In this document: one piece after another, positions 2,878-59,449 of the stretch
Numbering within the stretch: the first letter of the stretch is position 1
Layout: the number at the start of each line of letters is the position of its first letter
IMG/VR virus record: IMGVR_UViG_3300042396_000723
Coordinates: 1-64,000 of that record
From: a virus
Reading direction: 5' to 3' (one strand)
DNA length: 64,000 nt
Translations under genes and position numbers: made by a program
Notes under the pieces: generated by a model
What the model saw: only the letters and a program-made list of their open reading frames with translations
Database searches by the model: none
What the model was told of the DNA's origin: nothing

Positions 2878-5800
2878 ATGTCAAGTTCAAGTCTTAGCGG
2901 AGTCAGTATCACGATCTCGGCAAGTAATCAAGTTTCTCCTGTCCTTAGATCAATTCAAGAGGAGTTGCTTGGGCTGCGCCAACCCCTTCAGGTACTTGAC
3001 TTGTTTCGGAGTTCCTTTGGGGGGATAACGTCATCTATTGTTCAGGCTACGACAACTATCGGCTTCTTTGGGCAGGGGATGTCAACGCTTCGAGGGTTGG
3101 TTTCTAACGGCCCGTTTAAATTGTTGATTGGACAAACAGTCGAATTACATGGGCAGTTGCTATCGGTCGCTTCAACTATGGCGGCAACCTCAAAAATTAT
3201 TAGTAACGGGTTTGAAATTAAAGATCCTACACAAGCGATTCAGGCACTCAACCAACCTATAAACGAACAGATTAGACAGTTAAGAATTGATTCTATTGAT
3301 CTAGTTGGGGTCACGTCTAAGCAGTTGATTCCAGTATTTCAACAGGTGGCACAGGGTGCGACACCGATTGGAGCAACCCTAAGCGACGCAAGGAGTTTAA
3401 CCATTGACTTTGCAGCCGCACTGGGAACTTTACAAGTTCCATTGTTTCAAAGTAGGCAAGAAATTCAATCAATTTTTCTAGGAACAATTGATATGAATTC
3501 TATCCTGGCTAAATCGTTGGGGATAACTAACGTGATGGTTGCCAAGTGGAAGGCTCAGGGAACTTTGGTGCAGGAATTGACCACGCGATTGTCTGCATTT
3601 AGGGCCGGGAACAAATTGGCAGCCCAGAGTTTTTCTGGGGTAACTTCAAACATTCAAGAGATGTTTGAATTGATAGGACAAAGATCGGGGGAAAAACTAT
3701 TAACACCTTTGACTCAATCCCTAAACGAAGTCTACAAGTTTTTACAAACGAACCTTGATATGTTGGTGGGTGAATCGGGGAAGGTTACAGATCAGATCCT
3801 TCGCGCGGGTCTAGCCTTCCAGTCTATTTTTAAAACGGTTCTTGGGGATGTGGTGACGGTCTTTAAGGATGTTCCATTATTCTTGTTTACCTCTCTAGCG
3901 AACGCATTGGAGGCACTGAATCAAGGTCTGGGATTCACGATGGCGGTATTGCGTCCTGCCATTAACCTGTTCGCGGCATTATCAAGTGCGGTAGCTCCCC
4001 TCGCTTCTGGTTTCCTTGTGATTGCCCTTCAGGTAAAAGCCCTCACTGTTGGAGTAGGAATACTTTCTAAGGCTTTTGGGGTATTAGGCGGCATTCTGTT
4101 ACCCGGTGTCGGGCAAATCTTCCCCCTCCTTGTTGCTAACGCAGGTGCTTTAGGCGCTGCTTTTACGGGGCTTGGGGGAGCAACTATCTTCAGTTCTGTA
4201 GGTATGGCTCAATTCTCTGCCAACCTTCAGCGAATACCCGGCGCAATGACGTTAATGGCTTCTGCTACGGCAGCGTTAGGGAATCTTCTCAGGACAGTTG
4301 GCTTGGCGGTTGTCGCATTTGGTGCGTTCAAAATAATTGATGAATTTATCCTCAAAAACAGGGGGTTAATGGAAGTCCTTGGGGGTGTATTTGGGGGGTT
4401 GGGTGAAGTTGTCAATATTTTAATCGGGTCTTGGCAGTCAGCCTTGATCACTTCGACTGTTGTTGTCGGGGGGTTAGCGATCGCATTCCGCGCTCAATTA
4501 ATCCCTGCGGTTTTGTCGTTTATCTCAATTCAATTAGCTGGTGTTGTAACCAGTTCTGCATCTGCATTTGTGTTTCTTGCCGGAGTATTGACTTCTCTTG
4601 GATTTAGTAGTATGGCTATCACGGCCGGAACTGCTGCACTTCATTTACAAATGCTGTCTGCGTCTGCAAGTCTGGGAACATTGACTATGGGAGGGTTGGC
4701 TCTTGCTATTAAAAGTGTAGCCTTATCTGTAGCTACGTTACTCGCTCCTTTGGCTGCTGTAACTGCGGTAGTGGGAGGTGTTGGACTTGTTCTTTATAGT
4801 CAATCCTTAAAGGATTCTACAGAAGCCACACAGGAGTTAGCTAATAGAACTGAAGAATATGGGGATTTAGCTATTGATTCGCTTGAGAAACTGTCTGTGG
4901 CTCAGAAAAAGCAACAGGAGTCAGAGAAATCAGGGATTAGATTGACCGACGAAGAATATAAAAACAATCAAAAACTTCAAAATCAAGCCAAACTCAGGAT
5001 CGGATTAATAGAGGATCAAATAACTGCATTAAAAGAGCAGGAAAAAACAGTTAAGGGTGATGCCAACAAGTCTAACATTCAATCTCAAATAGGTGAGCTA
5101 GAAAAACTAAAAACGGCATTAGCTCAAGCATCTTCTAATGTGGTTATTGCACCAAAAGATTTAATGGTATTGGGGACGGCGTTAGAACAGTTAAAGAAAA
5201 AAGCAAATGAAGCTATGGACGCAATTCTAAAACCATCTGGAGATCAGGAGGTGTTTAAGAAAAAGGCATCCGAGGTTATTGAATTTAACATGGCTTTGTT
5301 AGAAATGGGGCAAACAATTGATAAGGATGTTATTACTAAACTACGTCAGTTAGCTAACGATACAAGGTTAGATCAAGAGGTTCAACGCAAGGCACAGGAA
5401 ACAATTACTAAAGTCATTGAGCAGGAAAGCAAAAAGCGATCCGATACTATTGCAAAACAAAAAGCAGAGGTAGAATCTCAACAAAAAAACGGGGAGATAG
5501 GAGTAAGGAAATCGGAAAAGTTAATAACTGATTTAACTATCAAGGAATTAGAGGAACGGAAATCAGCCCAACAAGAAATCCAGTCCGAGCAACGAGCTTT
5601 TGGAAACATTGAAGCAGCCCGAAAAGCAGGGGAAGAAATCAAGAAAATAGAATCAGATATTACTAAAGCAATTGCAGAGGAACGGTCTAAACGAAACGAG
5701 GAACTGGTTAAAAACTTTCAGGAGCAACAGTCAATTATTGAGGGGTATCTCGCCCAAGGATTAACCACAGAGAAAAACTACAACAACCAAAAATCACAGT

Positions 5801-7926: not shown

Positions 7927-7968
7927 TAGAGCCAATGCACAGGCTTGAATAGGTAGTGTTGAATGGTT

Positions 7969-8502
7969 TTAACTGGATTGTGATTGAGACCAATCGACAG
8001 CCGGCTTTATTGCTGCCATATAAAGATAAGGGAATAGTGTTGTCAGGTCTCCCCCTGTAATATTCTTTTTGAGGTGGGTTCTAAGCCATTTTATTATTGG
8101 TAAACCGCCCGATGTACCTAAAACGTAGTTAATAAAAACACTAAATTCACTTTTTAAATTTTCGTCCAATTGATTCATGTATTTGTCAATATCGGGGAGT
8201 AAAACATCCTGTCCGCAACTCAATACTTTAGATGCTAATTTAAAAGATTGAGCTATTTCTCCATTCTTGTTCTCTTGGAGTTGTAAATCCTTGCGTTGAG
8301 AATCAAAAAAACTTCCAGCTTTGATTCGATATCGAAGATAGTCACTCAGAATTTGATCGTCAAATATTGATGATTGCCGATTCTTTAGTATGTCAACTAG
8401 ATCCGTTTTTCCGTAGTTAGGATCTAACGCTTTCCGACGCTTTGCTTCTCCCATGTTTTTATCCCCAAAACTCTCAATAATTATACCGTATTTTGGACAC
8501 AA
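7969..8502 (-). CDS. hypothetical protein
   Basis: 177-aa ORF, ATG start. Confidence 0.5.
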   Translation of the reverse strand: MCPKYGIIIESFGDKNMGEAKRRKALDPNYGKTDLVDILKNRQSSIFDDQILSDYLRYRIKAGSFFDSQRKDLQLQENKNGEIAQSFKLASKVLSCGQDVLLPDIDKYMNQLDENLKSEFSVFINYVLGTSGGLPIIKWLRTHLKKNITGGDLTTLFPYLYMAAIKPAVDWSQSQSS

Positions 8503-8539
8503 CTAAACAATGAAAATGATATAATTAATAATAACAAAA

Positions 8540-8572
8540 CCCCTCGCGGTGCGTGAACACCCAGGGGTAGTA
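8540..8572 (+). promoter_or_regulatory. conserved 5' leader stem-loop motif, copy 1 (second copy at 19106-19141)
   Basis: CCCCTCGCGGTGCGTGAACACCCAGGGGTAGTAAACC about 30 nt upstream of the 8602 start; near-identical architecture upstream of 19162. Confidence 0.35.
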
Positions 8573-8601
8573 AACCAAAACTTCTAAGGAGACGGTTCAC
8601 C

Positions 8602-9138
8602 ATGTCAGATATTGTAAGATCAATCCGTGCAGAATTGAATCTAGGGGATAAAATTATTGATTGCTACCTATTCCCAGATGGAGAGAAACGGATCGGAATA
8701 GGTGGGGCGAGTATTGCTATCGGACGGAATAAAGAGTATTTGAGCAAGTCGGCTAAAAAGGGTACTAAAACGCTCAATGGCTTATGGGATATAGGTTACA
8801 CAGGTCGCCTAGAGGAAACCGAGATAAAAAATGATAGAGGTGCGACACGAAGTAAGACTATCTCAACCAGAGACTTTACAAAAGTAATCACATGGGACGC
8901 TGTAGTAAACAAAAATCAGAGTTCAATTGTCCTGTTAGCTGCTTTTGCTGAAACTGGGTTAGACGTAATTGTAGACAAGTTGTTCGACAATAAATCCGTA
9001 GATTTCCTACTGGAGAAAATTGTCCACTATACGAAATGGACTACAGAAGATCTCCAGGATGCCTTAAATGCCAACTATGACGATTGGAGCGTGATTGTGG
9101 AACAAGAGCAATTTTTGTTAGAGGGAGGGTTGAACTAA
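8602..9138 (+). CDS. hypothetical protein
   Basis: 178-aa ORF; stop overlaps the next start (TAATG). Confidence 0.55.
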   Translation: MSDIVRSIRAELNLGDKIIDCYLFPDGEKRIGIGGASIAIGRNKEYLSKSAKKGTKTLNGLWDIGYTGRLEETEIKNDRGATRSKTISTRDFTKVITWDAVVNKNQSSIVLLAAFAETGLDVIVDKLFDNKSVDFLLEKIVHYTKWTTEDLQDALNANYDDWSVIVEQEQFLLEGGLN

Positions 9139-9539
9139 TGAAACCCATCATAGAATCCAGAAAGTTTCCTATTCGGTTTTGCCACGTTATCCAGTGTGAA
9201 GGTTTTAGACTCCCTGATAGAGAATACCGAGTCACCATTGAATCAGCAATTTCTGTTGTCGGGTACGCCGAACTTAGACAACTTGATCCATTGACTGCGC
9301 TAAAGGAATTGGGGTTTAAGCATCGAGGGGAAATTATCAAAGTTAGAGATATTGAAACTCAAGTCATTTTTGAAACCTTGGGACTCCCCGATTTTAGTCG
9401 CCTAATATCTTTAGCATCAAGAATGGGGAAGCCTCACTCAGTGGCGTTTGTTGAGTCTATCGTTTCCACAGCCTTAGAAGATTGGTTTAGAGACTGCCAG
9501 AGGGAACAGATCGGGGTTGTAGGGGATTTAATCAGATAG
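9138..9539 (+). CDS. hypothetical protein
   Basis: In-frame ATG (MKPIIESRKF) overlapping the upstream stop; the track's longer GTG-start ORF from 9084 would overlap the previous gene. Confidence 0.5.
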   Translation: MKPIIESRKFPIRFCHVIQCEGFRLPDREYRVTIESAISVVGYAELRQLDPLTALKELGFKHRGEIIKVRDIETQVIFETLGLPDFSRLISLASRMGKPHSVAFVESIVSTALEDWFRDCQREQIGVVGDLIR

Positions 9540-9558
9540 TCGAATTAGATATCAAAAA

Positions 9559-9590
9559 GGCGCGGGGTTGAATCCGTGCCTAAGTTTTTT
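9559..9590. terminator. putative bidirectional intrinsic terminator
   Basis: GGCGCGG/CCGTGCC stem (one G-U) with loop GGTTGAAT, T6 downstream and A5 upstream; sits between converging + and - genes. Confidence 0.4.
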
Positions 9591-9620
9591 GGATTGGTTA
9601 ACGCAGTCTAAACGGAATTG

Positions 9621-9830
9621 CTAGGGATTGTGCGATCGCATACCATAATTTTTAGACATACGGAACCAGAAACAATCAAGGCAGAATTGAGAATTTGGCT
9701 TAACATCAAAACTAAATCCCAACCATCCATTTATGGGGTAAAAAGAAATACCATAATCACCCAAAAATATAAAGTCTGGCTCTTTTGTGTTTTCACTGCC
9801 GAGCAATACTGGATAAAAGTTTATGTGCAT
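9621..9830 (-). CDS. hypothetical protein
   Basis: 69-aa ORF continuing the minus-strand block; an overlapping plus-strand ORF (9618-9851) was not chosen. Confidence 0.3.
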   Translation of the reverse strand: MHINFYPVLLGSENTKEPDFIFLGDYGISFYPINGWLGFSFDVKPNSQFCLDCFWFRMSKNYGMRSHNP

Positions 9831-10067
9831 TCAGTCCTCACATGGGGTTGACATTGGTTCTTGTTCAATCCTGTCAAAAACCTCTTTGATTATAGAGAAG
9901 TTTTTGACAGCTCGGTTTCCCGTGTAGATTTCTGTTTTCCCGTAAACTGTTCTTACTCTTAGGATTGGTAACTGTGAGTTTAAGTTACTGATTTGATATT
10001 CTTTGATGTCTTCGACTCTGATCATTGTTAATTCCTGTTTGGTGAAGTGATAGAGGGTGAAATTCAC
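9831..10067 (-). CDS. hypothetical protein
   Basis: 78-aa ORF. Confidence 0.4.
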   Translation of the reverse strand: MNFTLYHFTKQELTMIRVEDIKEYQISNLNSQLPILRVRTVYGKTEIYTGNRAVKNFSIIKEVFDRIEQEPMSTPCED

Positions 10068-10084
10068 CCTCTGGTTATTAGCTA

Positions 10085-10510
10085 CTAACCGAGTGATTGA
10101 CGGGCATCTCTCAGGATTTTGTCCATTTGTTCTTGTGTAATGTCCATATCAGGATTGCTTTTGATGCGCCCCGCGCTAAATGCTTTCCCTGCGTAGGAGC
10201 GAATCATGGGAATTACAGGAATTACCACGGGTCGGGGTCGGGGTTGGGTTGTTACAGGGCGCAAGGCTTTGTATGCGGTCATCCATTTATTAGTCTTAAC
10301 CGTTGCCCATTTACCGTTTAAAACCGTTCCATCTTTGGTTCGGATGAAGTGGATGGTTTGACCATCGTTTGTTAATTCAGTCCAACCATAGCGGATTTCA
10401 ATCGTCCCATCTGGGTGAACCATTTTGATTGTGTCGATTGTGATTCCGTCAAACGTTGAGGTGTAGCTTGAGATGATCTCTGTGGTGATTGTGGCGATTT
10501 GAGCTACCAT
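10085..10510 (-). CDS. hypothetical protein
   Basis: 141-aa ORF. Confidence 0.5.
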   Translation of the reverse strand: MVAQIATITTEIISSYTSTFDGITIDTIKMVHPDGTIEIRYGWTELTNDGQTIHFIRTKDGTVLNGKWATVKTNKWMTAYKALRPVTTQPRPRPVVIPVIPMIRSYAGKAFSAGRIKSNPDMDITQEQMDKILRDARQSLG

Positions 10511-10574
10511 TGATTTAAGTCCTTAATTGGGTTGAGTGGAGTCGGTTGGGTGTCCCTGGTAAGTTGCTCGACCG

Positions 10575-10680
10575 ACTTTGTTTTACTTCTATGTTTTACA
10601 TCTTAACCGATTTGTTTTACGCTGTCAAGTAGTTTTACATCAGTCTTACTTATATGTTTTACTCGTAAGTAAGACTGATA
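10575..10680. repeat. iteron cluster A: 5 copies of GTTTTAC plus a 12-bp inverted repeat (CAGTCTTACTTA...TAAGTAAGACTG)
   Basis: GTTTTAC at about 10580, 10593, 10614, 10632, 10656; perfect IR at about 10641-10677; TGTCAAGTAGTTTTAC is shared with cluster B. Confidence 0.55.
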
Positions 10681-10724
10681 ACTTATAGATGGGTGAACTC
10701 CCCTCTAGGGAGGGGATTTGGGAT

Positions 10725-10991
10725 TTATTTAATTTTCGATTTTAACCATTTGATGATTTCGGTAACTTTCACGTCTTCCGGGAAGGTTTCAGTATCGGTA
10801 AACTCTAAGCCCGTGGGGTCGTACTGGGTAAGTTCGGCTTCTAATTGACCCTCAAAGGTAAGCGTTAAGAACAATTCGCCGTCAGATGGTAAAAAGTCAA
10901 TTTCACTATTTCCAAAGCGATAGAAGAAACCTTCTTCTGTAATCATCTTTTCAGATGCGAATGTCAGGAGCCGTTCTGTTTGGTTATTCAT
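10725..10991 (-). CDS. hypothetical protein (acidic), flanked on both sides by iteron clusters
   Basis: 88-aa ORF. Confidence 0.45.
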   Translation of the reverse strand: MNNQTERLLTFASEKMITEEGFFYRFGNSEIDFLPSDGELFLTLTFEGQLEAELTQYDPTGLEFTDTETFPEDVKVTEIIKWLKSKIK

Positions 10992-11059
10992 GATAGTTAG
11001 GTGCGGTTGTAGTGTTTGCGGGCTTTTCTTTACCCTATGTATAACAGTATAACAATTCT

Positions 11060-11190
11060 GTCTTACTTTGTCAAGTAGTTTTACTTTAGTATTACTTATA
11101 GGTTTATACTGTTTTACAGAATTACAATTAATCTTACTTATATGTCTTACTATTCGTTTTACATCGTGCTACACTTGAAGGTAAGACACA
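11060..11190. repeat. iteron cluster B: repeated GTTTTAC and CTTACTTATA(T/G)G motifs upstream of the RHH gene
   Basis: TGTCAAGTAGTTTTAC, ATTACTTATAGG, TCTTACTTATATGTCTTAC, CGTTTTAC and inverted GTAAGACA all within about 130 bp. Confidence 0.55.
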
Positions 11191-11204
11191 GAAGGAGTAA
11201 ACCG

Positions 11205-11567
11205 ATGGCGGCTAACAAATTAATTAACTTTCGATGCCCTGATGACTTACTTGCTGCAATAGAAGCCTACGGACGGGAACACTACCCTAACGGTCGGGGT
11301 AATACTGATTTTGACCAATCCAAAGCATTACGGGATATTCTAATTTCTGGCTTGGAGAGTTTAACCAATGGAGAAGTAAAGATAGAGAAAAAGGCTGACA
11401 AGCCCAAATCAAGCTATGCCGACCTATTGGATAGGATTGCCAAACTAGAGGCGCAGCAACCCACAGCTATTGATCCAACTATTATGGCGCGGCTAGATGC
11501 GATGGAGGCTGCAATCGCATTTGAGAAGGTGATGGGGATTTTGAAACAAATTGAAACCCCTAGTTGA
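11205..11567 (+). CDS. ribbon-helix-helix (CopG-like) transcriptional regulator
   Basis: GAAGGAG sits 7 nt upstream of the internal ATG; N-terminus MAANKLINFRCPDDLLAAIEAY fits an RHH fold; track start 11142 lies inside the iterons. Confidence 0.5.
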   Translation: MAANKLINFRCPDDLLAAIEAYGREHYPNGRGNTDFDQSKALRDILISGLESLTNGEVKIEKKADKPKSSYADLLDRIAKLEAQQPTAIDPTIMARLDAMEAAIAFEKVMGILKQIETPS

Positions 11568-13951: not shown

Positions 13952-14746
13952 ATGAAAGAACAAAAATTAATAGTAACAAAACATGACTACAAAAGAAATG
14001 ATAGCCCAACAAGCCTCATTCCGAACGTAGTAGACTCAACTGTATTCCTTGATTCTATCGGTAACAAAGTTGGATTTTATCTCAGGAGTTTGCCGGATGA
14101 TGTTAATGATGTTTTAGAATATTGCAACAAAGAACTAAGAAGTGACAGAGTACCTAAATCGACAATGCACAGACAATTGCCACTGGGAACTAAAAGCAAG
14201 ACAGGAGCGTGGGAATATGATACTGTCGAACAGGAGTCTGTGATAATCGGATCTGTACCCGCAAAGCCTCACCAAAGAAGACCTTTTAATTCAATAAGTC
14301 AAGTTCATTTAAAAAATTCAGCGTCTGCTTTTATTAAAGGAATGATAGTATTAGCAAAGCTGTCAGAGAATCTGATTAAAGATATTATGCCAGAGCAGTA
14401 TTTTATTCAGAAAAAAATAATAGAAGAAAATGTTTTAAAAAAATTTAGATTTGGAGATTTATTTACTAGCTCTATTAGCAATTATAATATAGCTGCTAAT
14501 TATCATCAGGACAATAGAAATCTCAAGAACACTGTAAATGTTATTTACTCAAAAAAAGAAAATGCCAGTGGTGGAAATCTTCATGTGCCAGACTATGATT
14601 TGGTTTTTGATAGTGTTGACGGATCAATGATCTGTTATCCGGCATGGGCAAACTTACACGGAGTTACACCTATTTTACCCACAAAGAAAGGTGGATACAG
14701 GAATGGTATTGTTTTTTATCCATTAGGAGGTTTGCACAAAGAATAG
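13952..14746 (+). CDS. hypothetical protein, possible 2OG-Fe(II) dioxygenase fold
   Basis: C-terminal H-Q-D (YHQD), a distal His (LHGV) about 50 aa later and Arg (YRNGIVFY) fit the HxD...H...R spacing; weak assignment. Confidence 0.3.
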   Translation: MKEQKLIVTKHDYKRNDSPTSLIPNVVDSTVFLDSIGNKVGFYLRSLPDDVNDVLEYCNKELRSDRVPKSTMHRQLPLGTKSKTGAWEYDTVEQESVIIGSVPAKPHQRRPFNSISQVHLKNSASAFIKGMIVLAKLSENLIKDIMPEQYFIQKKIIEENVLKKFRFGDLFTSSISNYNIAANYHQDNRNLKNTVNVIYSKKENASGGNLHVPDYDLVFDSVDGSMICYPAWANLHGVTPILPTKKGGYRNGIVFYPLGGLHKE

Positions 14747-14822: not shown

Positions 14823-15470
14823 ATGAGTAAGCCTAAAATTACTGAGACAGGTATCAGCAAGTTGACGCTATCTATTCACGAAACATTTCAACAAACGATT
14901 CAAGGTGAAGGGTTTTGGTCTGGGACTCCGTGCGATTTCATCCGATTACACGGGTGTCCGGTGGGGTGTTGGTTTTGTGATACTGGGTATAGTTCACAAG
15001 AAACAGTTAAGCCTCCATCAAAAACTTTTAAAACTCTCGACAATTTACTCAGGGAGTTAAAATCTGAGCATATTGTGATATCAGGCGGGGAACCTTTTAT
15101 CCATAAAGAGTTGCCCGAATTGGTTGATGCTCTTAATGATGCTGATAAATTTGTTGCGATTGAGACATCAGGGAGTTTTTTTCAACCCGTTAAAGACACC
15201 TGGATAACCCTTTCCCCAAAAGAACATCTAAATGATCGTTACCCCGTTTTAGACGAGCTATGGGGACTCGCTAACGAAATAAAATTAATTATCTCCACAG
15301 GGCAGGAGATTGATTTTTACAAGAAAAAGTTAGATGCGTTAAATATTCCTATCTACTTACAGCCGGAATGGAATGGCATAAATAAAACCCTTCCTTTAAC
15401 AATTGAATTAGTGATAGAATATAAGTATAGACTTTCTTTGCAAACTCACAAATTAATAGGGGTTCAATAA
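14823..15470 (+). CDS. queE: 7-carboxy-7-deazaguanine synthase QueE (radical SAM)
   Basis: TIQGEG followed by CPVGCWFC (Cx3Cx2C) cluster; length 215 aa. Confidence 0.8.
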   Translation: MSKPKITETGISKLTLSIHETFQQTIQGEGFWSGTPCDFIRLHGCPVGCWFCDTGYSSQETVKPPSKTFKTLDNLLRELKSEHIVISGGEPFIHKELPELVDALNDADKFVAIETSGSFFQPVKDTWITLSPKEHLNDRYPVLDELWGLANEIKLIISTGQEIDFYKKKLDALNIPIYLQPEWNGINKTLPLTIELVIEYKYRLSLQTHKLIGVQ

Positions 15471-15880
15471 TGTGGACACTGGTTAAGAAATTCACCTTTG
15501 AAGCGGCACACCAACTAACTAAACATCAAGGCAAATGCTCAAGACTTCATGGACATAGTTGGGTTGGATATGTTTATGTTTCAGGTGATAACCTAAAACA
15601 ATCAGGTAGTGAAGCGGGGATGGTGATGGATTATGGCGAAATTAAAAAAGTTATCAATCTTTTGGTCGATAATTATTTAGACCACCATTTTTTAAATGAT
15701 ACGACAAAACTAGAAAACCCTACCAGTGAAGAAATAGCGAGATGGATTTATGATCGAATCAAGCTCAAGCTCCCAGGACTTACAGCAATCAGAATCGATG
15801 AAACTTGCACAAGTCAATGCTTCTACTCTGAACTCAGTGATTTCTCTAGTAGAATCCGCAATGGTGACATTATGGGGTGA
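15470..15880 (+). CDS. queD: 6-carboxy-5,6,7,8-tetrahydropterin synthase QueD
   Basis: FTFEAAHQL...CSRLHGHSW...LDHHFLND...ENPTSEEIARWIY...ETCTS, hallmark QueD/PTPS motifs. Confidence 0.8.
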   Translation: MWTLVKKFTFEAAHQLTKHQGKCSRLHGHSWVGYVYVSGDNLKQSGSEAGMVMDYGEIKKVINLLVDNYLDHHFLNDTTKLENPTSEEIARWIYDRIKLKLPGLTAIRIDETCTSQCFYSELSDFSSRIRNGDIMG

Positions 15881-49083: not shown

Positions 49084-49671
49084 ATGACCGAGCTTAACGA
49101 TGAAATCTTTGATCAGGGAATTGAAAACCTGAAAGAAAATTTTTCCGACGCGATTTTCACCGAACTCAAATATGAAATTTGGTTCGACAAACTCTCTCAG
49201 GAGTTATCAGCTGAAGAATTTGAGACTGCAATCCGTGAGGCAATTTTCAACCTTAGCAAGTGTCCCACGGGAAAAGAGCTTGTAAGCCTCGTTAAAGAAT
49301 CCGAACGTGAGTTAGTAAGTAACTGTTGGTCAAGATGCCTAGAATCGCTTGCTAAACGCCTCCCGTTGAATAATTTAGACGATGCGAGTCAATATGCAAT
49401 CGTTCAACTCGGAGGGATGTCTCACCTTGGGTCGATTGAAAGTACCCAACTCAACTACCTGAGCAACGATTTCAAGACTCATTGGCAAGCCTACCGAAAA
49501 GCCCCGCGAGAATTTGAGCGTCCCACGCAGGTCATCCCCCGTGAGCAAATCGAGTTCAAGCCCAATGGACTCAAGCCACAGATTTCAGAGGAACAGAAGT
49601 TAAAAAATCAGGAATTTCTAAATAACCTGATCGCCACAAAAATGAATAAAAACTTAAATGGAGCGAAATAA
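49084..49671 (+). CDS. hypothetical protein (replication module, possible helicase loader)
   Basis: 195-aa ORF immediately 5' of dnaB; stop overlaps the dnaB start. Confidence 0.45.
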   Translation: MTELNDEIFDQGIENLKENFSDAIFTELKYEIWFDKLSQELSAEEFETAIREAIFNLSKCPTGKELVSLVKESERELVSNCWSRCLESLAKRLPLNNLDDASQYAIVQLGGMSHLGSIESTQLNYLSNDFKTHWQAYRKAPREFERPTQVIPREQIEFKPNGLKPQISEEQKLKNQEFLNNLIATKMNKNLNGAK

Positions 49672-50987
49672 TGGAAACAATAATCATGCAAAACGTTGAG
49701 GCAGAACAAGCCGTTTTGGGAGCGATTCTCTTAGACCCCGAAGCTATGGGGCGAGTTGCGGAAACGCTAACTGCTAAATCTTTTTCCCTGCGATCGCATC
49801 AAACAATCTACAAAGCAGCTTTAGCATTACATTCCGAGGGAATAACCACGGATTTAATGACCGTCACTACCTGGTTATCCGATCAGAAATTACTTGAAAA
49901 AGCCGGGGGACAATTAGGATTAACCCAATTATTAGACCGCACAGTTTCAGCAGTTAACATTGATCAATACGGGCTGTTAATTGCCGATAAGCAAACTCGA
50001 AGAAACCTAATTGAATCTGCCCATAAAATTATTGAATTGGCAGAAGATACCAGTCAACCTTTAGAGACAATTCTCCAAAAGTCAGAGGAACAAATTGCTA
50101 ATATTTCCCAATCAAAATCACAACAGGATTTAGTTTCGATTGGTGAAACTTTAATTGATACCTTTCAAGAAATTGAAGACCGGAGCGAAAGCAAGATTCC
50201 CCCCGGTGTCCCCTCTGGATTTTATGACCTCGATGCTATGACTGGAGGATTCCAACACACCGACTTAATTATTGTGGCAGGAAGACCTGCAATGGGCAAA
50301 TCGAGTTTGGCTTTAAATTTTGGATATAACATTGCCAAAAAAGGGCTACCCGTCGCGGTCTTCAGTTTAGAAATGTCTAAAGGTCAATTAGTCCAAAGAC
50401 TATTATCGAGCGAAACCAAAATTGAAAGTACCCGCATTCGTTCAGGAAACATTCAGCAAGAGGAATGGGAACCTTTGACAACCGCAATTAGTTCCTTAGC
50501 AGAATTACCGATTTATATTGACGACACCTCGAATATTACCATCACCGAAATGCGTTCTGAAGCTCGAAGATTGCAAGCCGATAACGATGGAAAGTTAGGC
50601 TTAATTCTAATAGATTATCTGCAATTAATGGACGGAGGAAGTGATAATCGGGTGCAAGAATTGTCAAGAATTACACGGGGATTAAAGGGAATGGCAAAAG
50701 ATTTAAACGTTCCTGTAGTTGTCCTGTCTCAGTTGAGTCGTAGCGTCGAACAGCGCACCAATAAACGCCCAATGCTTTCAGACTTGAGAGAATCGGGCTC
50801 AATTGAACAAGACGCGGACTTAGTAATGATGATCTATCGAGATGATTATTATAATCCCAACACTTCGGACGCGGGAATAGCTGAATTAATTTTAGCTAAA
50901 CATCGCAACGGCCCCACCGGAACAGTAAAGCTATTGTTCGATTCTCAATTTACCCAATTTAAAAATTTAGTACGGGGGATGAACTAA
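49671..50987 (+). CDS. dnaB: replicative DNA helicase DnaB
   Basis: N-terminal AEQAVLGAILLDPEA, Walker A AGRPAMGKSSLALN, Walker B LGLILIDYLQLM, RecA-like SQLSRSVEQR and arginine finger region. Confidence 0.9.
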   Translation: METIIMQNVEAEQAVLGAILLDPEAMGRVAETLTAKSFSLRSHQTIYKAALALHSEGITTDLMTVTTWLSDQKLLEKAGGQLGLTQLLDRTVSAVNIDQYGLLIADKQTRRNLIESAHKIIELAEDTSQPLETILQKSEEQIANISQSKSQQDLVSIGETLIDTFQEIEDRSESKIPPGVPSGFYDLDAMTGGFQHTDLIIVAGRPAMGKSSLALNFGYNIAKKGLPVAVFSLEMSKGQLVQRLLSSETKIESTRIRSGNIQQEEWEPLTTAISSLAELPIYIDDTSNITITEMRSEARRLQADNDGKLGLILIDYLQLMDGGSDNRVQELSRITRGLKGMAKDLNVPVVVLSQLSRSVEQRTNKRPMLSDLRESGSIEQDADLVMMIYRDDYYNPNTSDAGIAELILAKHRNGPTGTVKLLFDSQFTQFKNLVRGMN

Positions 50988-53017: not shown

Positions 53018-53461
53018 ATGAAAACATCAACTAAAGCCAAAACCAAACCCGCTAAAAAAGGATTTCAACCCGCCCCTAAAATTCATGACAATGACTTACA
53101 TATATTTTCTTGTGAGTGCCTTTGGTATGACTCAGAAACCGACGAGGAACTATTGACCGAATTGTGGACAGTCAAACTCGATAAACGACGGTTTCGGACT
53201 GATGTCAGGCAAGCCATTATTACGGGGTTGATCTATTGCTTTCTTGAAACACCGGAAGCAACGGAACGGCATATTAACAGGGTGTTTTTTTGGAATAATA
53301 AATCCCGTGCCTATGAGCCATTAGGGGCGGTGTCTGACGCGCCGATGGACGGATCTAGTCCGGTTGATTTTGAAGCCGATCCGGTGGTGGCTTATGAGCG
53401 ATTAAAAGCCCTTTGTGTCGAGATCGAAGTTATCAAGGTTGACGATTGCTTTTGCTCTTGA
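53018..53461 (+). CDS. hypothetical protein
   Basis: 147-aa ORF. Confidence 0.5.
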   Translation: MKTSTKAKTKPAKKGFQPAPKIHDNDLHIFSCECLWYDSETDEELLTELWTVKLDKRRFRTDVRQAIITGLIYCFLETPEATERHINRVFFWNNKSRAYEPLGAVSDAPMDGSSPVDFEADPVVAYERLKALCVEIEVIKVDDCFCS

Positions 53462-53469
53462 CCTTTTAA

Positions 53470-53515
53470 AAATACACAAATAAACTTGTTTTTTTTGCGT
53501 TATTTGTGTATAATG
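53470..53515 (+). promoter_or_regulatory. promoter-like element with overlapping inverted repeat (extended -10 TGTGTATAAT)
   Basis: ACACAAATAA...TTATTTGTGT inverted repeat and a TATAAT box about 16 nt after TTGTTT. Confidence 0.4.
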
Positions 53516-53519
53516 AAAA

Positions 53520-53780
53520 CAGTCAAGAATCAAGGTTTACCAATGTAGTTTGTTGGTAAATAGTTAACCAGTCTAAGCTCTTTACTGAGCTACGTTATTG
53601 GGAAGTGTTTAAGTTCATACCTTGGGATGCGTTGCCAGTTCCAAGCTCTATAACTAAGTGATTAAACAGATGTACAGCAATTAAGTCAGCAATACTGCTG
53701 ATACCCTCTTAATAAGCAGCGATTTCCCACAAATCCCCATAATCTGTTATAACTGGTGAGTAGTTATATGAGGTTGTTTT
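53520..53780 (+). ncRNA. candidate structured noncoding RNA or long 5' leader
   Basis: About 260 nt without an ORF downstream of the promoter-like element; hairpins TTTACCAA/TTGGTAAA and CAGCA/TGCTG. Confidence 0.25.
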
Positions 53781-53781
53781 T

Positions 53782-53982
53782 ATGGTAAGACCCCACGAAC
53801 ACAGGCAAGAAATCAAAGCCAGACTCAAACCAGAAGATAGGGAGAAGTTGAAAGCCCTCGTCGTTGGCATGGGTTATCGTTATTGGAGGCAGGAGTCACC
53901 GGAACCCGCATGGACTGAGTTTTTGGAGGCGATCGCAACGGGCGATATAATTCTTTACAAAAAAGTCGGGGGAGGGGGTTGA
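53782..53982 (+). CDS. hypothetical small protein
   Basis: 66-aa ORF. Confidence 0.35.
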   Translation: MVRPHEHRQEIKARLKPEDREKLKALVVGMGYRYWRQESPEPAWTEFLEAIATGDIILYKKVGGGG

Positions 53983-55088: not shown

Positions 55089-55118
55089 AACCAGGGGTTT
55101 ATATTCCCTGGTTTTTTG
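55089..55118. terminator. bidirectional intrinsic terminator
   Basis: AACCAGGG/CCCTGGTT stem followed by TTTTT, between converging genes. Confidence 0.7.
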
Positions 55119-55122
55119 CTGT

Positions 55123-55719
55123 TTATCTAATCACAGGGACAGGAATAATCCCCATCAGAATGCCAGATATTTCCTGAAACATTCGCGTAGTTGTTTGCGT
55201 TGCGTCAATTATAATCCAGTTATTTTGCCTAGCCAATTCCAGATATCCGAAGCGAACCCGATCTAAAAAAAGCAAGTCTCGTTCAACCTTGTCCAGAGGT
55301 TTGTCGAGATCGCGGCGCACCGCCACCTCAACAGGACAATCGAACAAAATCACCATATCGGGATCAATTCCCCCCGTCGCCTCGTGATTTAGCTTCCTTA
55401 AATTATCTAAATTAAGCCCGTGCCCATATCCCTGATAGGCAAGTGTTGAATCCGTGTATCGATCACACAATACCAAATCAGAATCTTCTAACAAATATCT
55501 AATCGTGGGATTGTGTTTAATCCTATCCTTCAGGATTAATTTAAGCTGCTGCTCCGGCGTTAAACACCCATTCTTTAATTCAAAACGAACGTCATAATCG
55601 CAGGGTTCTCTTGTGATGTAGAACTTTAACTTTAACGCCGTGAAATGGTCGCAAAGTTTTCTAATTTGGGTTGTTTTCCCACTGCGGTCAATACCTTCAA
55701 AAGCAATCAATTTACTCAT
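55123..55719 (-). CDS. tmk: thymidylate kinase
   Basis: P-loop FEGIDRSGKTTQ, DRY-like LCDRYTDSTLAYQG and lid region; start at ATG overlapping the upstream stop. Confidence 0.8.
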   Translation of the reverse strand: MSKLIAFEGIDRSGKTTQIRKLCDHFTALKLKFYITREPCDYDVRFELKNGCLTPEQQLKLILKDRIKHNPTIRYLLEDSDLVLCDRYTDSTLAYQGYGHGLNLDNLRKLNHEATGGIDPDMVILFDCPVEVAVRRDLDKPLDKVERDLLFLDRVRFGYLELARQNNWIIIDATQTTTRMFQEISGILMGIIPVPVIR

Positions 55720-56062: not shown

Positions 56063-56272
56063 ATGCGCGACTATATAAACAGAGTCCCCGACTATGGGGA
56101 AAAGAAAAAGCCTCACAATCTGAGTTTGACCGACACGGCGTGGCAACGGCTTGATAAATTAGCTGCGCTCTTGGGAGTGTCCAGGAGTGAGTTCGTCGAA
56201 CGCCTATCCCGTGGAGCGATTGCCCCACAAGACTTACAAGCCTTTTATAAAATTTTTTTAAAAAAAGGTTGA
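56063..56272 (+). CDS. ribbon-helix-helix (CopG-like) regulator
   Basis: LSLTDTAWQRLDKLAALLGVSRSEFVERL fits an RHH fold. Confidence 0.5.
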   Translation: MRDYINRVPDYGEKKKPHNLSLTDTAWQRLDKLAALLGVSRSEFVERLSRGAIAPQDLQAFYKIFLKKG

Positions 56273-56298
56273 CAATTTCTAAAGTATGCGTATATTAT
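56269..56298 (+). promoter_or_regulatory. sigma70-like promoter
   Basis: TTGACA-17 nt-ATATTA/TATATT upstream of the 56328 start. Confidence 0.45.
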
Positions 56299-57187: not shown

Positions 57188-57685
57188 ATGACAACTTTCA
57201 CAAAACCAGAAAACCTTTTTGATTCAGTTGATTTTCAAGGATTTGTCGTCGGAGAAGACGACGCGGTAACAACAGTATTGTATCGGGGTCAAGTCCCCGA
57301 TTTTAAGCGGAATAAAAAACAGGTCGTAAAGTTTGACTTCGACCTTCACTGCCTAACGGCAAAACACTGGTTTCTAGCTATAGAGCTATCTACTTCTGAC
57401 CTTTTGTTTAAGGAGGTAGAAAGTTGTCCTGTTGAACTTCCCAATGAGTTCAAGGATTCAGTTGTCCTGCACCCTGTAAACGGGAAAGTGGGCGTTTGGG
57501 TTGCGCCGATGTCACCCACTGATGTTTCGGGTTGGCAAAAAGCTATGGAAACTACAGCGACAGAGGTAAAAGCCTCTGGTAGTGTGAAGTTTCGAGGGCT
57601 TCACAACCTGTTCAACAGGCTATCCCGCGTTACCCCCAAAACAGGGGTTGTTGGGGGTGCTAAATTCCCGACATGGAGAGACTAA
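57188..57685 (+). CDS. hypothetical protein
   Basis: 165-aa ORF. Confidence 0.55.
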   Translation: MTTFTKPENLFDSVDFQGFVVGEDDAVTTVLYRGQVPDFKRNKKQVVKFDFDLHCLTAKHWFLAIELSTSDLLFKEVESCPVELPNEFKDSVVLHPVNGKVGVWVAPMSPTDVSGWQKAMETTATEVKASGSVKFRGLHNLFNRLSRVTPKTGVVGGAKFPTWRD

Positions 57686-57710
57686 AAGTAGCGATCTCAG
57701 GTTAGCTCCT

Positions 57711-57737
57711 AGCACGGTTCGATTCCGTGCGGTCGCA
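57711..57737 (+). other. tRNA 3'-end-like element (T-arm plus acceptor-like), not a complete tRNA
   Basis: CACGG-TTCGATT-CCGTG followed by CGGTCGCA; no D-arm or anticodon arm can be built upstream. Confidence 0.3.
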
Positions 57738-57774
57738 TTCCCGAAAGGGATTATTAACTACATAGGCTAAAGCA

Positions 57775-58056
57775 ATGAAGAAACATCAAATCAATGAGCA
57801 ACTTAGTAAGTTATTGAAACTTACTAACTGCTCTAACCTAGAGGTAACGGTTGACAACAACACCAGGGATTGTATGACCGTCTGGAAGCTATGGGGTAAA
57901 GGTGGGCAAATTGCCCAAGCCGAAGCACGGTTTGGATCGGAATATTCTGATCAACCCGATGGTTTTGCCTTCTATTTAGAAGGCTACAACTGGACAGATT
58001 ACTGTCCTACAGTTCAAGATTGTGCCAGCCAACACAAGGAGCGCGCTCTTGTCTAA
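57775..58056 (+). CDS. hypothetical protein
   Basis: 93-aa ORF. Confidence 0.45.
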   Translation: MKKHQINEQLSKLLKLTNCSNLEVTVDNNTRDCMTVWKLWGKGGQIAQAEARFGSEYSDQPDGFAFYLEGYNWTDYCPTVQDCASQHKERALV

Positions 58057-58057
58057 T

Positions 58058-58222
58058 ATGACCCATTATTTCGGCTACGAAGTCGAGATTAAAGATAAAT
58101 CAGGGAAGTACGCCTGGTTTATCTACCAAGACGGGGTAATCATCTTTTCAAGTGGCTACGATTACCCCACAGAAGCCACAGCCTATGACTGCGCTTGCAG
58201 TCGCATTGACACATTATTCTAA
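58058..58222 (+). CDS. hypothetical small protein
   Basis: 54 aa from the in-frame ATG (track's TTG start at 58022 overlaps the previous gene). Confidence 0.35.
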   Translation: MTHYFGYEVEIKDKSGKYAWFIYQDGVIIFSSGYDYPTEATAYDCACSRIDTLF

Positions 58223-58233
58223 GGAAAAATCAA

Positions 58234-58614
58234 ATGGAAATCATTAACGCTACACCCCATCAAATCGTTATCTGTAGCAACCAAGGGGTTGTCCAAGATG
58301 CAAAGACTAAGCAATTCACAGCTTCGGCTGTTGAGATCCTCCACACCCTGCCACCATCGGGAATCATCCCCCGCGTGGCGATGGGGAATACCGAATCCGA
58401 ACCCATTTTAGGTATTCCAGTCCAAAGCGTTCAATATGGCGAGATTGAGGGACTCCCCCCTGCGTCTCCCGATGTTTATTATGTAGTGTCGGGACTGGTA
58501 GCAGCAGCCGCCGTTAAAGTGAACAGGGCTGATTGCCTGGCTCCGGGTGCGCTAGTCCGCAATTCTGCCAACCCATCAGAGGTGTTAGGCTGTCTTTTTT
58601 TGCAAAAGCCCTGA
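58234..58614 (+). CDS. hypothetical protein (possible frameshift partner of downstream zinc-ribbon ORF)
   Basis: 126-aa ORF ending just after a T7 run. Confidence 0.45.
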   Translation: MEIINATPHQIVICSNQGVVQDAKTKQFTASAVEILHTLPPSGIIPRVAMGNTESEPILGIPVQSVQYGEIEGLPPASPDVYYVVSGLVAAAAVKVNRADCLAPGALVRNSANPSEVLGCLFLQKP

Positions 58615-58721
58615 TTGGCGACGGTTGCCCCCGGTGTGGTAGTCATAGGCTGGTTAGATATGGTTACACCGAACACGGTCGCCGCCGAATGAAATGCAAG
58701 GATTGTAATAAATTATTTTAA
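58533..58721 (+). CDS. zinc-ribbon (InsA-like) ORF in -1 frame, probably expressed only as a fusion
   Basis: CPRCGSHRLVRYGYTEHGRRRMKCKDCNKLF; only a TTG start, no SD; lies in the -1 frame relative to 58234-58614. Confidence 0.35.
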   Translation: MPGSGCASPQFCQPIRGVRLSFFAKALIGDGCPRCGSHRLVRYGYTEHGRRRMKCKDCNKLF

Positions 58722-58725
58722 AATC

Positions 58726-58757
58726 AACCCTCTAAATATTTAGAGGGTTCTTTTTTT
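58726..58757. terminator. bidirectional intrinsic terminator
   Basis: Perfect palindrome AACCCTCTAAATATTTAGAGGGTT followed by T7. Confidence 0.75.
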
Positions 58758-58759
58758 GA

Positions 58760-59449
58760 TTATCTGATAATCGTTAACGTCGTAGTCTCTGGCAACTTCA
58801 CCCACGGATAAACGATCCGCCAAACATCGTGACTATAAATATTTTTCGTCATGTACCGGGCGTCGGGAACTTGTTTAATCTCTATCCCCATCTTAATACT
58901 CATCGCTTTGAGAGGTCGCCAACTGAAGTTAGACTCATGAACTTTATTGAACTTGGCAACCCTGATGATTGACGAATAATCAAAAAGTTCATCCAAAGCC
59001 TCGGACAGTTGATTGTTTTCTTCCTCAAGCAGTGCTTTCTCGGCCTCTAACTTTTCTACCTCTAACGCCAATCGTCCAGCCTCTAGCAAAGCCTGAGCAT
59101 AGGTTTGTGGTAACGCAAGCGGGGTCTGAACGTGGTTATTCTTAGCAAGGGAGAAAGCCTCAACTAACCGTTCTTTGCAATCCAAAACCTGATCACTGTT
59201 TCGGGAAAACGTCATCAAAAGTGTTGCTTGTGCTTCATTCAAGAAACAGTAAGAGACTTCGTAAGCCCCACCCTGCGGGCGTCTCACCACGTCCGTTTTA
59301 AACGCGACTGGTGTTTTTCGTTCTAATCGGTCTAAATACTTTGTGATTGTTTGCAGTAAGTTCTTATGTTGAATCCCCAGTTCATCAGCAATCAATCGGG
59401 AATCGACAACTAAGGTGTCATTCTGTGTGGTAATGTCAAGAATAGCCAT
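58760..59449 (-). CDS. phage regulatory protein Rha / antirepressor-like
   Basis: N-terminal LVVDSRLIADELGIQHKNLLQTI resembles the Rha DNA-binding domain; central coiled coil. Confidence 0.55.
   Translation of the reverse strand: MAILDITTQNDTLVVDSRLIADELGIQHKNLLQTITKYLDRLERKTPVAFKTDVVRRPQGGAYEVSYCFLNEAQATLLMTFSRNSDQVLDCKERLVEAFSLAKNNHVQTPLALPQTYAQALLEAGRLALEVEKLEAEKALLEEENNQLSEALDELFDYSSIIRVAKFNKVHESNFSWRPLKAMSIKMGIEIKQVPDARYMTKNIYSHDVWRIVYPWVKLPETTTLTIIR

What the first reader, a model, noticed from the sequence alone, without database searches (positions are those of the whole stretch)
57711..57737. tRNA 3'-end mimic downstream of a gene; a related hairpin at 9559-9590
CACGG-TTCGATT-CCGTG plus CGGTCGCA looks like a T-arm with a consensus T-loop and an acceptor 3' strand, but no D-arm or anticodon arm exists upstream. 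This could be an attP-like core (phages integrating into tRNA genes carry the tRNA 3' end), a tRNA-like 3' structure, or an unusual terminator. A second hairpin with loop GGTTGAAT and stem CCGTGCC occurs at 9559-9590. No integrase was found in this window.
Basis: seen in the sequence. Interest (0 to 1): 0.45.

Follow-up and report, generated by a model that had tools for sequence, protein, structure and literature searches.

The report
Mini tRNA-like RNA between cyanophage genes
A 47-base remnant of a tRNA (acceptor stem plus T-arm, no D or anticodon arm), followed by a small hairpin, sits between two co-directional genes of a Planktothrix cyanophage; its folding is conserved in related phages, so it is most likely an RNA-processing signal and not a phage integration site.

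Summary
The element is therefore a complete mini-tRNA: a 6-bp acceptor stem, a 3-bp mini-hairpin, a 6-bp T-arm with a consensus T-loop, and discriminator A. It is followed by UU and a CCC-GAAA-GGG hairpin.

The window is a relative of Planktothrix phage PaV-LD. Seventeen distinct copies from PaV-LD-like phages keep the fold, with compensatory changes in both the acceptor and T stems. G·U pairs occur only on the gene-sense strand. A distant relative (L061) carries four diverged copies with the same architecture.

The attP reading fails. No cyanobacterial genome among 185,579 species carries the 25-mer. The window has no integrase. Relatives carry 2-4 copies.

It is not a canonical tRNA (ARAGORN and Rfam find none), and it has no terminator U-tract.

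Best reading: a tRNA-derived "t-element"-like punctuation signal cut by RNase P and RNase Z inside a polycistronic mRNA. The processing step is inferred, not shown.

The hairpin at 9558-9581 is an ordinary terminator-like hairpin and is unrelated.

The parts
57691..57696 (+). 5' strand of the acceptor-like stem (GCGATC). Base 57697 (T) would be position 7 but is mismatched in this copy.
   Evidence: Pairs with 57731-57736 in the MFE fold. In the alignment this helix is 97.5% paired, and two of its pairs change on both sides.
57699..57710 (+). Mini-hairpin AGG-ttagct-CCT. It takes the place of the D and anticodon arms.
   Evidence: It is shortened in some relatives (the ttag deletion in L020, L035 and L059) and replaced by a longer, anticodon-arm-like hairpin in L061.
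57712..57730 (+). T-arm: a 6-bp stem GCACGG/CCGTGC around the loop TTCGATT (57718-57724).
   Evidence: The stem is 100% paired in 17 distinct copies, with 3-4 covarying pairs. The loop letters T54, T55, C56, G57 and A58 are invariant.
57731..57737 (+). 3' strand of the acceptor-like stem (GGTCGC) plus discriminator A (57737).
   Evidence: The discriminator is A in 16 of 17 copies.
57738..57752 (+). UU linker, then the CCC-GAAA-GGG hairpin (57740-57749), then AUU.
   Evidence: In L061 and L073 the same position holds CCCC-ucgu-GGGG, CCC-gcaa-GGG, CCGC-aauaac-GCGG and CCCC-guua-GGGG.
57188..57685 (+). Upstream ORF (165 aa, no family match). Its stop codon ends 5 nt before the element.
57775..58056 (+). 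Downstream ORF (93 aa, no family match). Its start codon lies 25 nt after the 3' hairpin.
56269..56298 (+). Promoter-like site (TTGACA, 16/18-nt spacer, TATATT/TATTAT; 11 of 12 matches). Likely start of the transcription unit that contains the element.
   Evidence: This is a consensus match only.
58726..58759 (+). Terminator-like hairpin with a T-run. Likely end of the same transcription unit.
9558..9591 (+). It is terminator-like, lies after ORF 9084-9539, and is not part of the element family.
   Evidence: It is not matched by model R1.

Best explanation
The element is a tRNA-derived, tRNA-like RNA module. It is transcribed in the sense of its flanking genes, as part of a polycistronic phage mRNA. 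It keeps only the 'top half' of a tRNA: a roughly 12-bp acceptor/T-arm stack, a consensus T-loop and discriminator A. That half is what RNase P, RNase Z and the CCA-adding enzyme recognise.

Proposed mechanism (inferred, not shown):
- RNase P cuts just 5' of G57691 and releases the upstream mRNA.
- RNase Z cuts after A57737. The downstream mRNA then begins with UU plus a GNRA-capped hairpin, which would shield its 5' end.
- A mini-tRNA of about 47 nt is released as a by-product.

The element would thus punctuate the operon and uncouple the stabilities of small accessory-gene mRNAs. This is how plant mitochondrial t-elements and the mascRNA module of MALAT1 work.
For: SHOWN
- Fold: a three-way junction in the window and in PaV-LD. 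RNAalifold predicts the same structure without guidance.
- Covariation: 94.4% of cells are paired, against 29-44% for slid controls. Six or seven pairs change on both sides. None of 500 shuffles reaches the observed values.
- Strand: all 17 G·U cells of the acceptor helix are on the + strand. They would be A·C mismatches on the other strand. The + strand fold is also the stronger one (z = -2.6 versus -1.6).
- T-loop: the letters are invariant across copies whose stems differ.
- Stack length: acceptor plus T stem is 12 bp in the window, 12, 12, 12 and 13 bp in the four L061 paralogs, and 13 bp in L073.
- Diverged paralogs: the L061 copies have quite different stems (GCGATC/GGTCGC, AGCGGA/TCCGTT, GCCTA/TAGGC, ACAACC/GGTTGT). 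All keep the order discriminator A, UU, small hairpin, AUYU, RBS, ATG.
- Position: the element is always sense to its neighbours. The upstream stop codon lies 0-12 nt before G1 and the downstream start 13-27 nt past the model end in most copies.
- Operon context: the window copy lies mid-operon, between a promoter-like site and a terminator-like site.
- Origin: L061 copy a shares 25 contiguous bases of T-arm plus acceptor with a phage tRNA-Gly(UCC).

FROM THE LITERATURE AND ESTABLISHED KNOWLEDGE
- Non-canonical tRNA-like t-elements, found with the same GGTTCRANYCC motif, direct RNase P and RNase Z cleavage that forms mRNA ends (PMC1920247).
- Minihelices of acceptor stem plus T-arm suffice as substrates for RNase P, RNase Z and the CCA-adding enzyme (my own knowledge).
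Against: - No transcript-end data exist for PaV-LD or its relatives, so cleavage is entirely inferred.
- Diversity is shallow. Most copies come from one phage lineage and fall into two T-stem types, so much of the covariation may reflect only a few events.
- Some copies look decayed without obvious harm. PaV-LD itself has an A·C mismatch at pair 1-72, a second copy with the T-loop inverted, and a third site reduced to a single GCGATCGC plus the hairpin. The window copy has a T·C mismatch at position 7-66.
- In many copies the acceptor halves are HIP1-like octamers (GCGATCGC). HIP1 is a self-complementary repeat that is hugely enriched in this genome, so part of the pairing could come free.
Confidence: 0.55

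Rival explanations
1. Decaying tRNA pseudogene. The element is the remnant of a phage tRNA gene that lost its D and anticodon arms. It has no function of its own and persists by linkage and through HIP1-type sequence maintenance.
For: - It resembles a phage tRNA-Gly(UCC).
- PaV-LD carries degenerate versions: an inverted T-loop and a solo HIP1 remnant.
- Mismatches at pair 1-72 (PaV-LD) and pair 7-66 (window) are tolerated.
- HIP1 is enriched 22 to 0.2.
Against: - Compensatory changes keep both helices paired.
- Four paralogs in L061 have unrelated stems but the same architecture, stack length and trailing hairpin.
- T-loop letters are invariant while the stems vary.
- Position and orientation relative to genes are constant.
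- The element is retained in a lineage whose tape-measure protein is only 43% identical.
Confidence: 0.15
2. DNA-level junction for modular gene exchange. The conserved intergenic block of about 75 bp serves as a homology patch, or a HIP1-bounded hotspot, at which small accessory genes are swapped between phages. This can coexist with an RNA role.
For: - The same element joins at least seven different upstream flanks to at least seven different downstream flanks.
- In the window it sits exactly at a synteny break with PaV-LD.
- L045/L048 carry an extra gene bracketed by two copies.
- A precise interior deletion between the two HIP1-like halves is seen in PaV-LD.
- Some copies are chimeric, for example a type-A 5' part joined to a type-B T-arm in L045c2.
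Against: A homology patch needs neither a T-loop consensus, a 12-bp stack, GNRA loops nor strand-specific G·U pairs. The L061 paralogs are too diverged from one another to recombine, yet they keep the fold.
Confidence: 0.15
3. Trans-acting mini-tRNA. The released, CCA-tailed RNA of about 47 nt is itself the product. It could act as a decoy or sponge for host enzymes or defence toxins that act on tRNA acceptor ends, or as a substrate for aminoacylation.
For: The acceptor/T-arm half is what such proteins bind. Structure and discriminator are conserved. Several copies per genome would raise the dose.
Against: Acceptor sequences differ widely between the L061 paralogs, so no single identity set is kept. 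The tight coupling to the downstream start codon and to the trailing hairpin points to a cis role. There is no associated protein gene.
Confidence: 0.08
4. attP-like core: the 3' end of a host tRNA gene, carried for site-specific integration.
For: Many phages integrate into tRNA 3' ends. PaV-LD encodes a genuine tyrosine recombinase 3.3 kb upstream of its copy.
Against: - The 25-mer, in both the window and PaV-LD variants, is absent from every cyanobacterial genome in a scan of 185,579 species. The only hit is a Planctomycetota tRNA-Lys.
- The window lacks the integrase.
- There are 2-4 copies per genome.
- A paired, covarying 5' strand is present.
Confidence: 0.03
5. Transcription terminator or attenuator.
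For: It has GC-rich hairpins directly after a stop codon. Cyanobacteria lack Rho and may use atypical terminators (my own knowledge).
Against: No U-tract follows either hairpin, and the scan does not call it a terminator. The next gene starts 25 nt downstream on the same strand with no promoter-like site in between. A plain terminator does not need a T-loop or acceptor pairing.
Confidence: 0.04

Closest known systems
Plant mitochondrial t-elements (Forner et al. 2007, PMC1920247)
   Same: Both are non-canonical tRNA-like folds that keep the GGTTCRANYCC T-arm and an acceptor-like stem. Both are embedded next to mRNAs. T-elements are cleaved by RNase P and RNase Z to form mRNA 3' and 5' ends, and the freed t-element receives non-templated C/CA.
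   Different: T-elements occur in an organelle, not a bacteriophage. There is no sequence homology. Here the element is fused to a conserved UU-hairpin-AUU module just upstream of the next RBS, and cleavage is untested.
mascRNA / MEN-beta tRNA-like modules of MALAT1 and NEAT1 (Rfam RF01684)
   Same: A tRNA-like structure inside a longer transcript is cut by RNase P, which defines the upstream RNA's 3' end, and by RNase Z. A small tRNA-like RNA is released.
   Different: These are eukaryotic nuclear lncRNAs. The Rfam score here is 15.8 bits against a threshold of 42.5, so the element is not a member.
Phage-encoded tRNA genes and tRNA-gene fragments at att sites
   Same: The T-arm and acceptor sequences are of tRNA type. 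L061 copy a shares 25 nt with a phage tRNA-Gly(UCC). True phage tRNAs can also be followed by an ATT-CCC...GGG hairpin.
   Different: It has no D arm, anticodon arm or anticodon, and ARAGORN finds nothing. Unlike att fragments, it keeps a paired 5' strand and matches no host tRNA.
RAGATH-36 RNA (Rfam RF03104)
   Same: The family consensus begins with a near-identical hairpin, caCGG-UAcGAUU-CCGug, followed at once by a second small hairpin.
   Different: The score is 18.6 bits against a gathering score of 70. Only the first ~40 of 128 model positions align. I found no published function.
PeSL-type intergenic cassettes of T4-like phages
   Same: Both are conserved structured intergenic blocks that flank small variable genes and mark mosaic junctions.
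   Different: PeSLs are promoter-plus-stem-loop units, not tRNA-like. There is no sequence relationship.

Membership tests
Canonical tRNA gene | Cloverleaf with D arm and anticodon arm, detected by tRNA finders or the Rfam tRNA clan | tested here: not met
   ARAGORN finds 0 genes in the window, in PaV-LD and in L061. Rfam finds nothing at gathering score. The best hit in the tRNA clan is 11.6 bits.
Canonical tRNA gene | T-arm with a G53-C61 closing pair, loop T54-T55-C56-R57-A58, and a 12-bp acceptor/T stack | tested here: met
attP / tRNA 3'-fragment integration core | Sequence identity with the 3' end of a host tRNA gene | tested here: not met
   The pattern CWSGGTTCGATTCCSWGYGGTCGCA was scanned against 185,579 species genomes. 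It gave 1 hit, a Planctomycetota tRNA-Lys. Limits: the match had to be an exact 25-mer, only one genome per species is held, and the host strain HAB637 itself was not available.
attP / tRNA 3'-fragment integration core | A cognate integrase in the same genome, usually adjacent | tested here: not met
   No integrase homolog in the window (17 further ORFs scanned against Pfam without a recombinase domain). PaV-LD has one 3.3 kb away, but that block is deleted in the window's phage. Only 64 kb of a genome of about 95 kb was seen.
attP / tRNA 3'-fragment integration core | A single site per genome consisting of the tRNA 3' part only | tested here: not met
   There are 2-4 copies in PaV-LD, L020, L032, L045, L215, L227 and L061. 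A covarying 5' acceptor strand is present.
Intrinsic (Rho-independent) terminator | GC-rich hairpin followed directly by a U-tract | tested here: not met
   The scan does not call 57691-57752 a terminator. The tails are CGCATTCC and ATTATTAAC. By contrast, 9558-9581 does meet the criterion.
t-element-like processing signal (functional class) | Non-canonical tRNA-like fold that contains GGTTCRANYCC and an acceptor-like stem | tested here: met
   The motif definition is taken from PMC1920247.
t-element-like processing signal (functional class) | Element termini coincide with mRNA 3' and 5' ends; cleavage by RNase P and RNase Z | not testable with these tools
   I found no transcript-end data for PaV-LD-like phages.
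RAGATH-36 (RF03104) | Score at or above the Rfam gathering score (70 bits) over the 128-position model | tested here: not met
   18.6 bits, E = 0.13. Only the 5' hairpins align.
tmRNA (including the permuted cyanobacterial form, RF01851) | tRNA-like domain plus a tag reading frame; score at or above the gathering score | tested here: not met
   11.6 bits against 70. ARAGORN finds no tmRNA.
Integron attC site | Integron-type integrase nearby, and R''/L''-L'/R' cores with GTTRRRY | tested here: not met
   There is no integrase in the window. GTTAGCT / GTTAGCC does not fit GTTRRRY (read). The inverted repeats are those of a tRNA top half, with a fixed T-loop.

The most novel reading that the evidence does not exclude
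PaV-LD-like cyanophages, and at least one unrelated phage (L073), have turned remnants of their own tRNA genes into portable 'mini-tRNA + hairpin' cassettes. These cassettes would do two jobs. First, they would hijack the host tRNA-maturation enzymes to cut phage operons into separately stabilised mRNAs. Second, they would serve as junctions at which small accessory genes are exchanged. The released CCA-tailed minihelices might in addition act in trans on host factors that bind tRNA ends.
Probability: 0.12. Interest if true: 0.75.

Novelty: new variant of a known kind. Interest (0 to 1): 0.5.

Why it matters
tRNA-like punctuation of mRNAs is textbook for mitochondria and is known for a few eukaryotic lncRNAs. 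I found no description of it for bacteriophage operons.

If confirmed, it would have three consequences:
- It would show that a phage can recruit host RNase P and RNase Z to shape its own transcriptome.
- It would explain a class of 'orphan T-arm' hits that tRNA finders discard and that are easily mistaken for att sites.
- It would give a compact, portable processing module for cyanobacterial synthetic biology.

There is also a practical lesson for annotation. A tRNA 3'-end look-alike in a phage genome is not by itself evidence of an integration site.

Tried and rejected
- Canonical or odd tRNA. ARAGORN in standard mode found nothing. Mitochondrial or low-threshold modes gave only noisy, inconsistent calls.
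- Rfam. Nothing at gathering thresholds. Weak sub-threshold hits to RAGATH-36, mascRNA and cyano_tmRNA were judged not to indicate membership.
- attP. Rejected on the genome-wide 25-mer scan, the absent integrase and the multiple copies.
- Terminator. Rejected for the element but accepted for 9558-9581.
- Relationship between the two hairpins. Rejected, because the model gives no hit there.
- Additional copies in the window. There are none. The GGTTCGATTCC at 46062 lies in a different context and scores only 12.8 bits.
- The viral scan with CGCAGGTTAGCNCCT was too unspecific. It gave mostly random loci, which I reused as a background sample.
- One pattern call failed on syntax.
- Flanking proteins. 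No Pfam or PHROG function was found that could hint at a partner protein.
- Literature. I found nothing on this element, on RAGATH-36, or on fine-scale PaV-LD transcript maps.
- Integron attC analogy. Considered and rejected: no IntI and the core motif does not fit.

Full report
**What is there**

Window 57711-57737 reads AGCACGGTTCGATTCCGTGCGGTCGCA, exactly as reported. ARAGORN finds no tRNA or tmRNA in the 64 kb, and Rfam finds nothing at gathering thresholds.

It lies 5 nt after the stop codon of ORF 57188-57685 and is complementary, with one G·U pair, to GGTCGC at 57731-57736. The RNA of 57680-57760 folds as follows (-25.7 kcal/mol, z = -2.6):
- a 6-bp acceptor-like stem;
- a 3-bp mini-hairpin, AGG-uuagcu-CCU;
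- a 6-bp T-arm with loop UUCGAUU;
- an unpaired A;
- UU;
- a CCC-GAAA-GGG hairpin.

The next ORF starts at 57775. The opposite strand folds less well (z = -1.6).

**Context**

The window is a circularly permuted relative of Planktothrix phage PaV-LD (HQ683709). A promoter-like site at 56269-56298 and a terminator-like hairpin at 58726-58749 bracket four or five co-directional small ORFs of unknown function, with the element in the middle.

The element also marks a synteny break. To its left lie the PaV-LD ORF024 homolog and one extra ORF. To its right, 57760-58760 has no PaV-LD counterpart.

**Conservation and covariation**

PaV-LD carries the element after ORF024, with the T-stem changed from CACGG/CCGTG to CTGGG/CCCAG. 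Pattern scans of IMG/VR and JGI metagenomes recovered many copies. Seventeen are distinct.

On their alignment:
- 94.4% of pair cells are standard pairs, against 29-44% when partners are slid by 1-3 columns.
- Six pairs change on both sides. In the acceptor stem these are G-C/A-U/G-U and U-A/C-G/U-G. Three more are in the T-stem.
- None of 500 shuffles reaches the observed values.
- RNAalifold, given no structure, returns the same fold. It adds a seventh covarying pair that makes the T-stem 6 bp.
- All 17 wobble cells of the acceptor helix are G·U on the + strand, so the folded molecule is the sense RNA.
- The T-loop letters are invariant.

The diversity is shallow, essentially two T-stem types in one phage lineage. 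The shuffle control therefore overstates the number of independent events.

**A more distant witness**

Locus L061 comes from a phage whose tape-measure protein is 43% identical to PaV-LD's. It carries four copies in a row between small same-strand ORFs. Their acceptor stems are unrelated in sequence: GCGATC/GGTCGC, AGCGGA/TCCGTT, GCCTA/TAGGC and ACAACC/GGTTGT.

Each copy nevertheless folds as acceptor stem, variable middle and T-arm, with an acceptor-plus-T stack of 12, 12, 12 and 13 bp. Each is followed by A, UU, a small GC hairpin (often GNRA-capped), AUYU, an RBS and ATG.

An unrelated phage, L073, has two copies of a pure 12-13-bp minihelix with the same tail, flanking a 73-aa ORF.

Across all loci the element is sense to its neighbours. 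In most copies the upstream stop lies 0-12 nt before G1 and the next start 13-27 nt past the model end.

**Origin**

L061 copy a shares 25 contiguous bases (GAGGGTTCGATTCCCTCCGGTCGCA) with a tRNA-Gly(UCC) that sits in the tRNA cluster of a 58%-GC phage. It also shares that tRNA's acceptor 5' strand and anticodon-stem 5' strand. The family therefore most likely descends from a phage tRNA gene by internal deletion. This is inference.

**The attP reading**

A 25-mer pattern covering both the window and PaV-LD variants hit one genome among 185,579 species. That hit is a Planctomycetota tRNA-Lys(UUU).

PaV-LD ORF018R is a genuine tyrosine recombinase. However, the whole block PaV-LD 7865-11542 is missing from the window's phage, and the element persists there. 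Multiple copies per genome and a covarying 5' strand are also not what an att core looks like. I put this reading at about 3%.

Limits of this test: the match had to be exact, only one genome per species is held, the host strain itself was not available, and no second genome scan was allowed.

**Decay and DNA-level behaviour**

Model R1 finds one copy in the window and three sites in PaV-LD:
- the full copy;
- a second copy after ORF025, whose T-loop is inverted (CACGG-AGTCGAA-CCGTG) and whose trailing hairpin is lost;
- a third site after ORF026, where the interior 38 nt are gone. This leaves a single GCGATCGC plus ATTCCCGAAAGGGATTTAACCA.

In many copies the two acceptor halves are HIP1-like octamers. 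HIP1 occurs 22 times in the window against 0.2 expected.

The same element joins many different gene pairs, and some copies are chimeric.

The block therefore also behaves as a recombination or deletion hotspot. This supports the pseudogene and 'mosaic junction' rivals, though neither explains the RNA-specific constraints.

**Mechanism proposed**

The features under selection are the T-loop, a stack of about 12 bp, discriminator A and the sense orientation. These are the features read by RNase P, RNase Z and the CCA-adding enzyme (established knowledge).

Plant mitochondrial t-elements were found with the same GGTTCRANYCC motif. They are cut by these enzymes to make mRNA ends (PMC1920247).

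I therefore propose that the element punctuates the phage operon:
- RNase P cuts at 57690/57691.
- RNase Z cuts at 57737/57738.
- The GNRA hairpin becomes a protective 5' structure for the downstream mRNA.

The fold and its conservation are shown. Transcription, cleavage and the stabilising role are inferred. Confidence in the processing model is about 0.55. Confidence that this is a conserved tRNA-derived structured RNA element, rather than an att site or a terminator, is about 0.9.

**The second hairpin**

Region 9558-9581 forms a 9-bp stem (6 G-C pairs) with a 6-nt loop GTTGAA, followed by AAGTTTTTTG. It lies after ORF 9084-9539, at a convergent gene boundary. It meets the terminator criteria, lacks a T-loop, and is not matched by R1 even at E = 10. 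The resemblance to the element is superficial.

**Novelty**

I found no description of this element or of tRNA-like punctuation in phage operons. Rfam's RAGATH-36 shares the first hairpin, but the score is far below threshold. I rate the finding as a new variant of a known kind, of moderate interest. The structure is solid, the mechanism is plausible, and it can be tested directly.

Noticed in passing
window, whole (e.g. 9632-9639, 53929-53936): The cyanobacterial HIP1 palindrome GCGATCGC occurs 22 times, against 0.2 expected from shuffles. The element's acceptor halves are one-mismatch HIP1 copies. In several relatives they are exact HIP1 copies.
   Followed up: partly
L199 (PaV-LD) 15090-15179 and 15538-15573: PaV-LD has two degenerate copies of the element. 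One has the T-loop precisely inverted within its stem. The other is reduced to a single HIP1 octamer plus the CCCGAAAGGG hairpin, as if the interior was deleted between the two HIP1-like halves.
   Followed up: partly
window 53447-53737, versus PaV-LD 7865-11542: The window's phage lacks a 3.7-kb block of PaV-LD that includes ORF018R. ORF018R is a bona fide tyrosine recombinase with an arm-DNA-binding domain. PaV-LD may therefore be able to integrate, while this relative cannot.
   Followed up: partly
window 49671-50987, versus PaV-LD 3659-5398: The PaV-LD replicative helicase gene has about 424 extra bases (4785-5209) that are absent from the window's DnaB-type gene. This looks like an intein-sized insertion.
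   Followed up: no
window 13952-14746: This ORF has a near-threshold match to the Tet/JBP 2OG-Fe(II) dioxygenase domain (33 bits against 34.9). It may be a DNA-base-modifying enzyme.
   Followed up: no
L073 2556-2647 and 2887-2978 (- strand): A phage unrelated to PaV-LD carries two identical copies of a pure 12-13-bp acceptor/T-arm minihelix followed by A-UU-CCCC-GUUA-GGGG. Each copy lies just upstream of a small ORF. The architecture may be more widespread than the PaV-LD lineage.
   Followed up: partly
L004 1263-1284 and L052 1991-2012: These AT-rich phage contigs carry an orphan tRNA 3' half (anticodon-loop-like region, T-arm and acceptor) that ends in CTGGGTTCGATTCCCAGTGGTCGCA. There is no 5' half and no ARAGORN call. 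This looks like a genuine att-type tRNA fragment and makes a useful contrast to the element.
   Followed up: no
L064, L065, L069, L071, L079, L084, L089: Several true phage tRNA genes in tRNA clusters are followed directly by ATT-CCC-loop-GGG-A hairpins like the one after the element. The search pattern required this tail, so its frequency is unknown. It suggests that the hairpin belongs to a tRNA-gene unit.
   Followed up: no
window 46185 onward, versus PaV-LD 306 onward: The window is circularly permuted relative to the deposited PaV-LD genome. Window 1-44 kb corresponds to PaV-LD 58-94 kb, and window 46-57 kb to PaV-LD 0.3-14.8 kb.
   Followed up: yes
window 55089-55123 and 58726-58759: These are two clean terminator-like hairpins with T-runs at convergent gene boundaries. 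They are useful for defining the transcription units around the element.
   Followed up: partly
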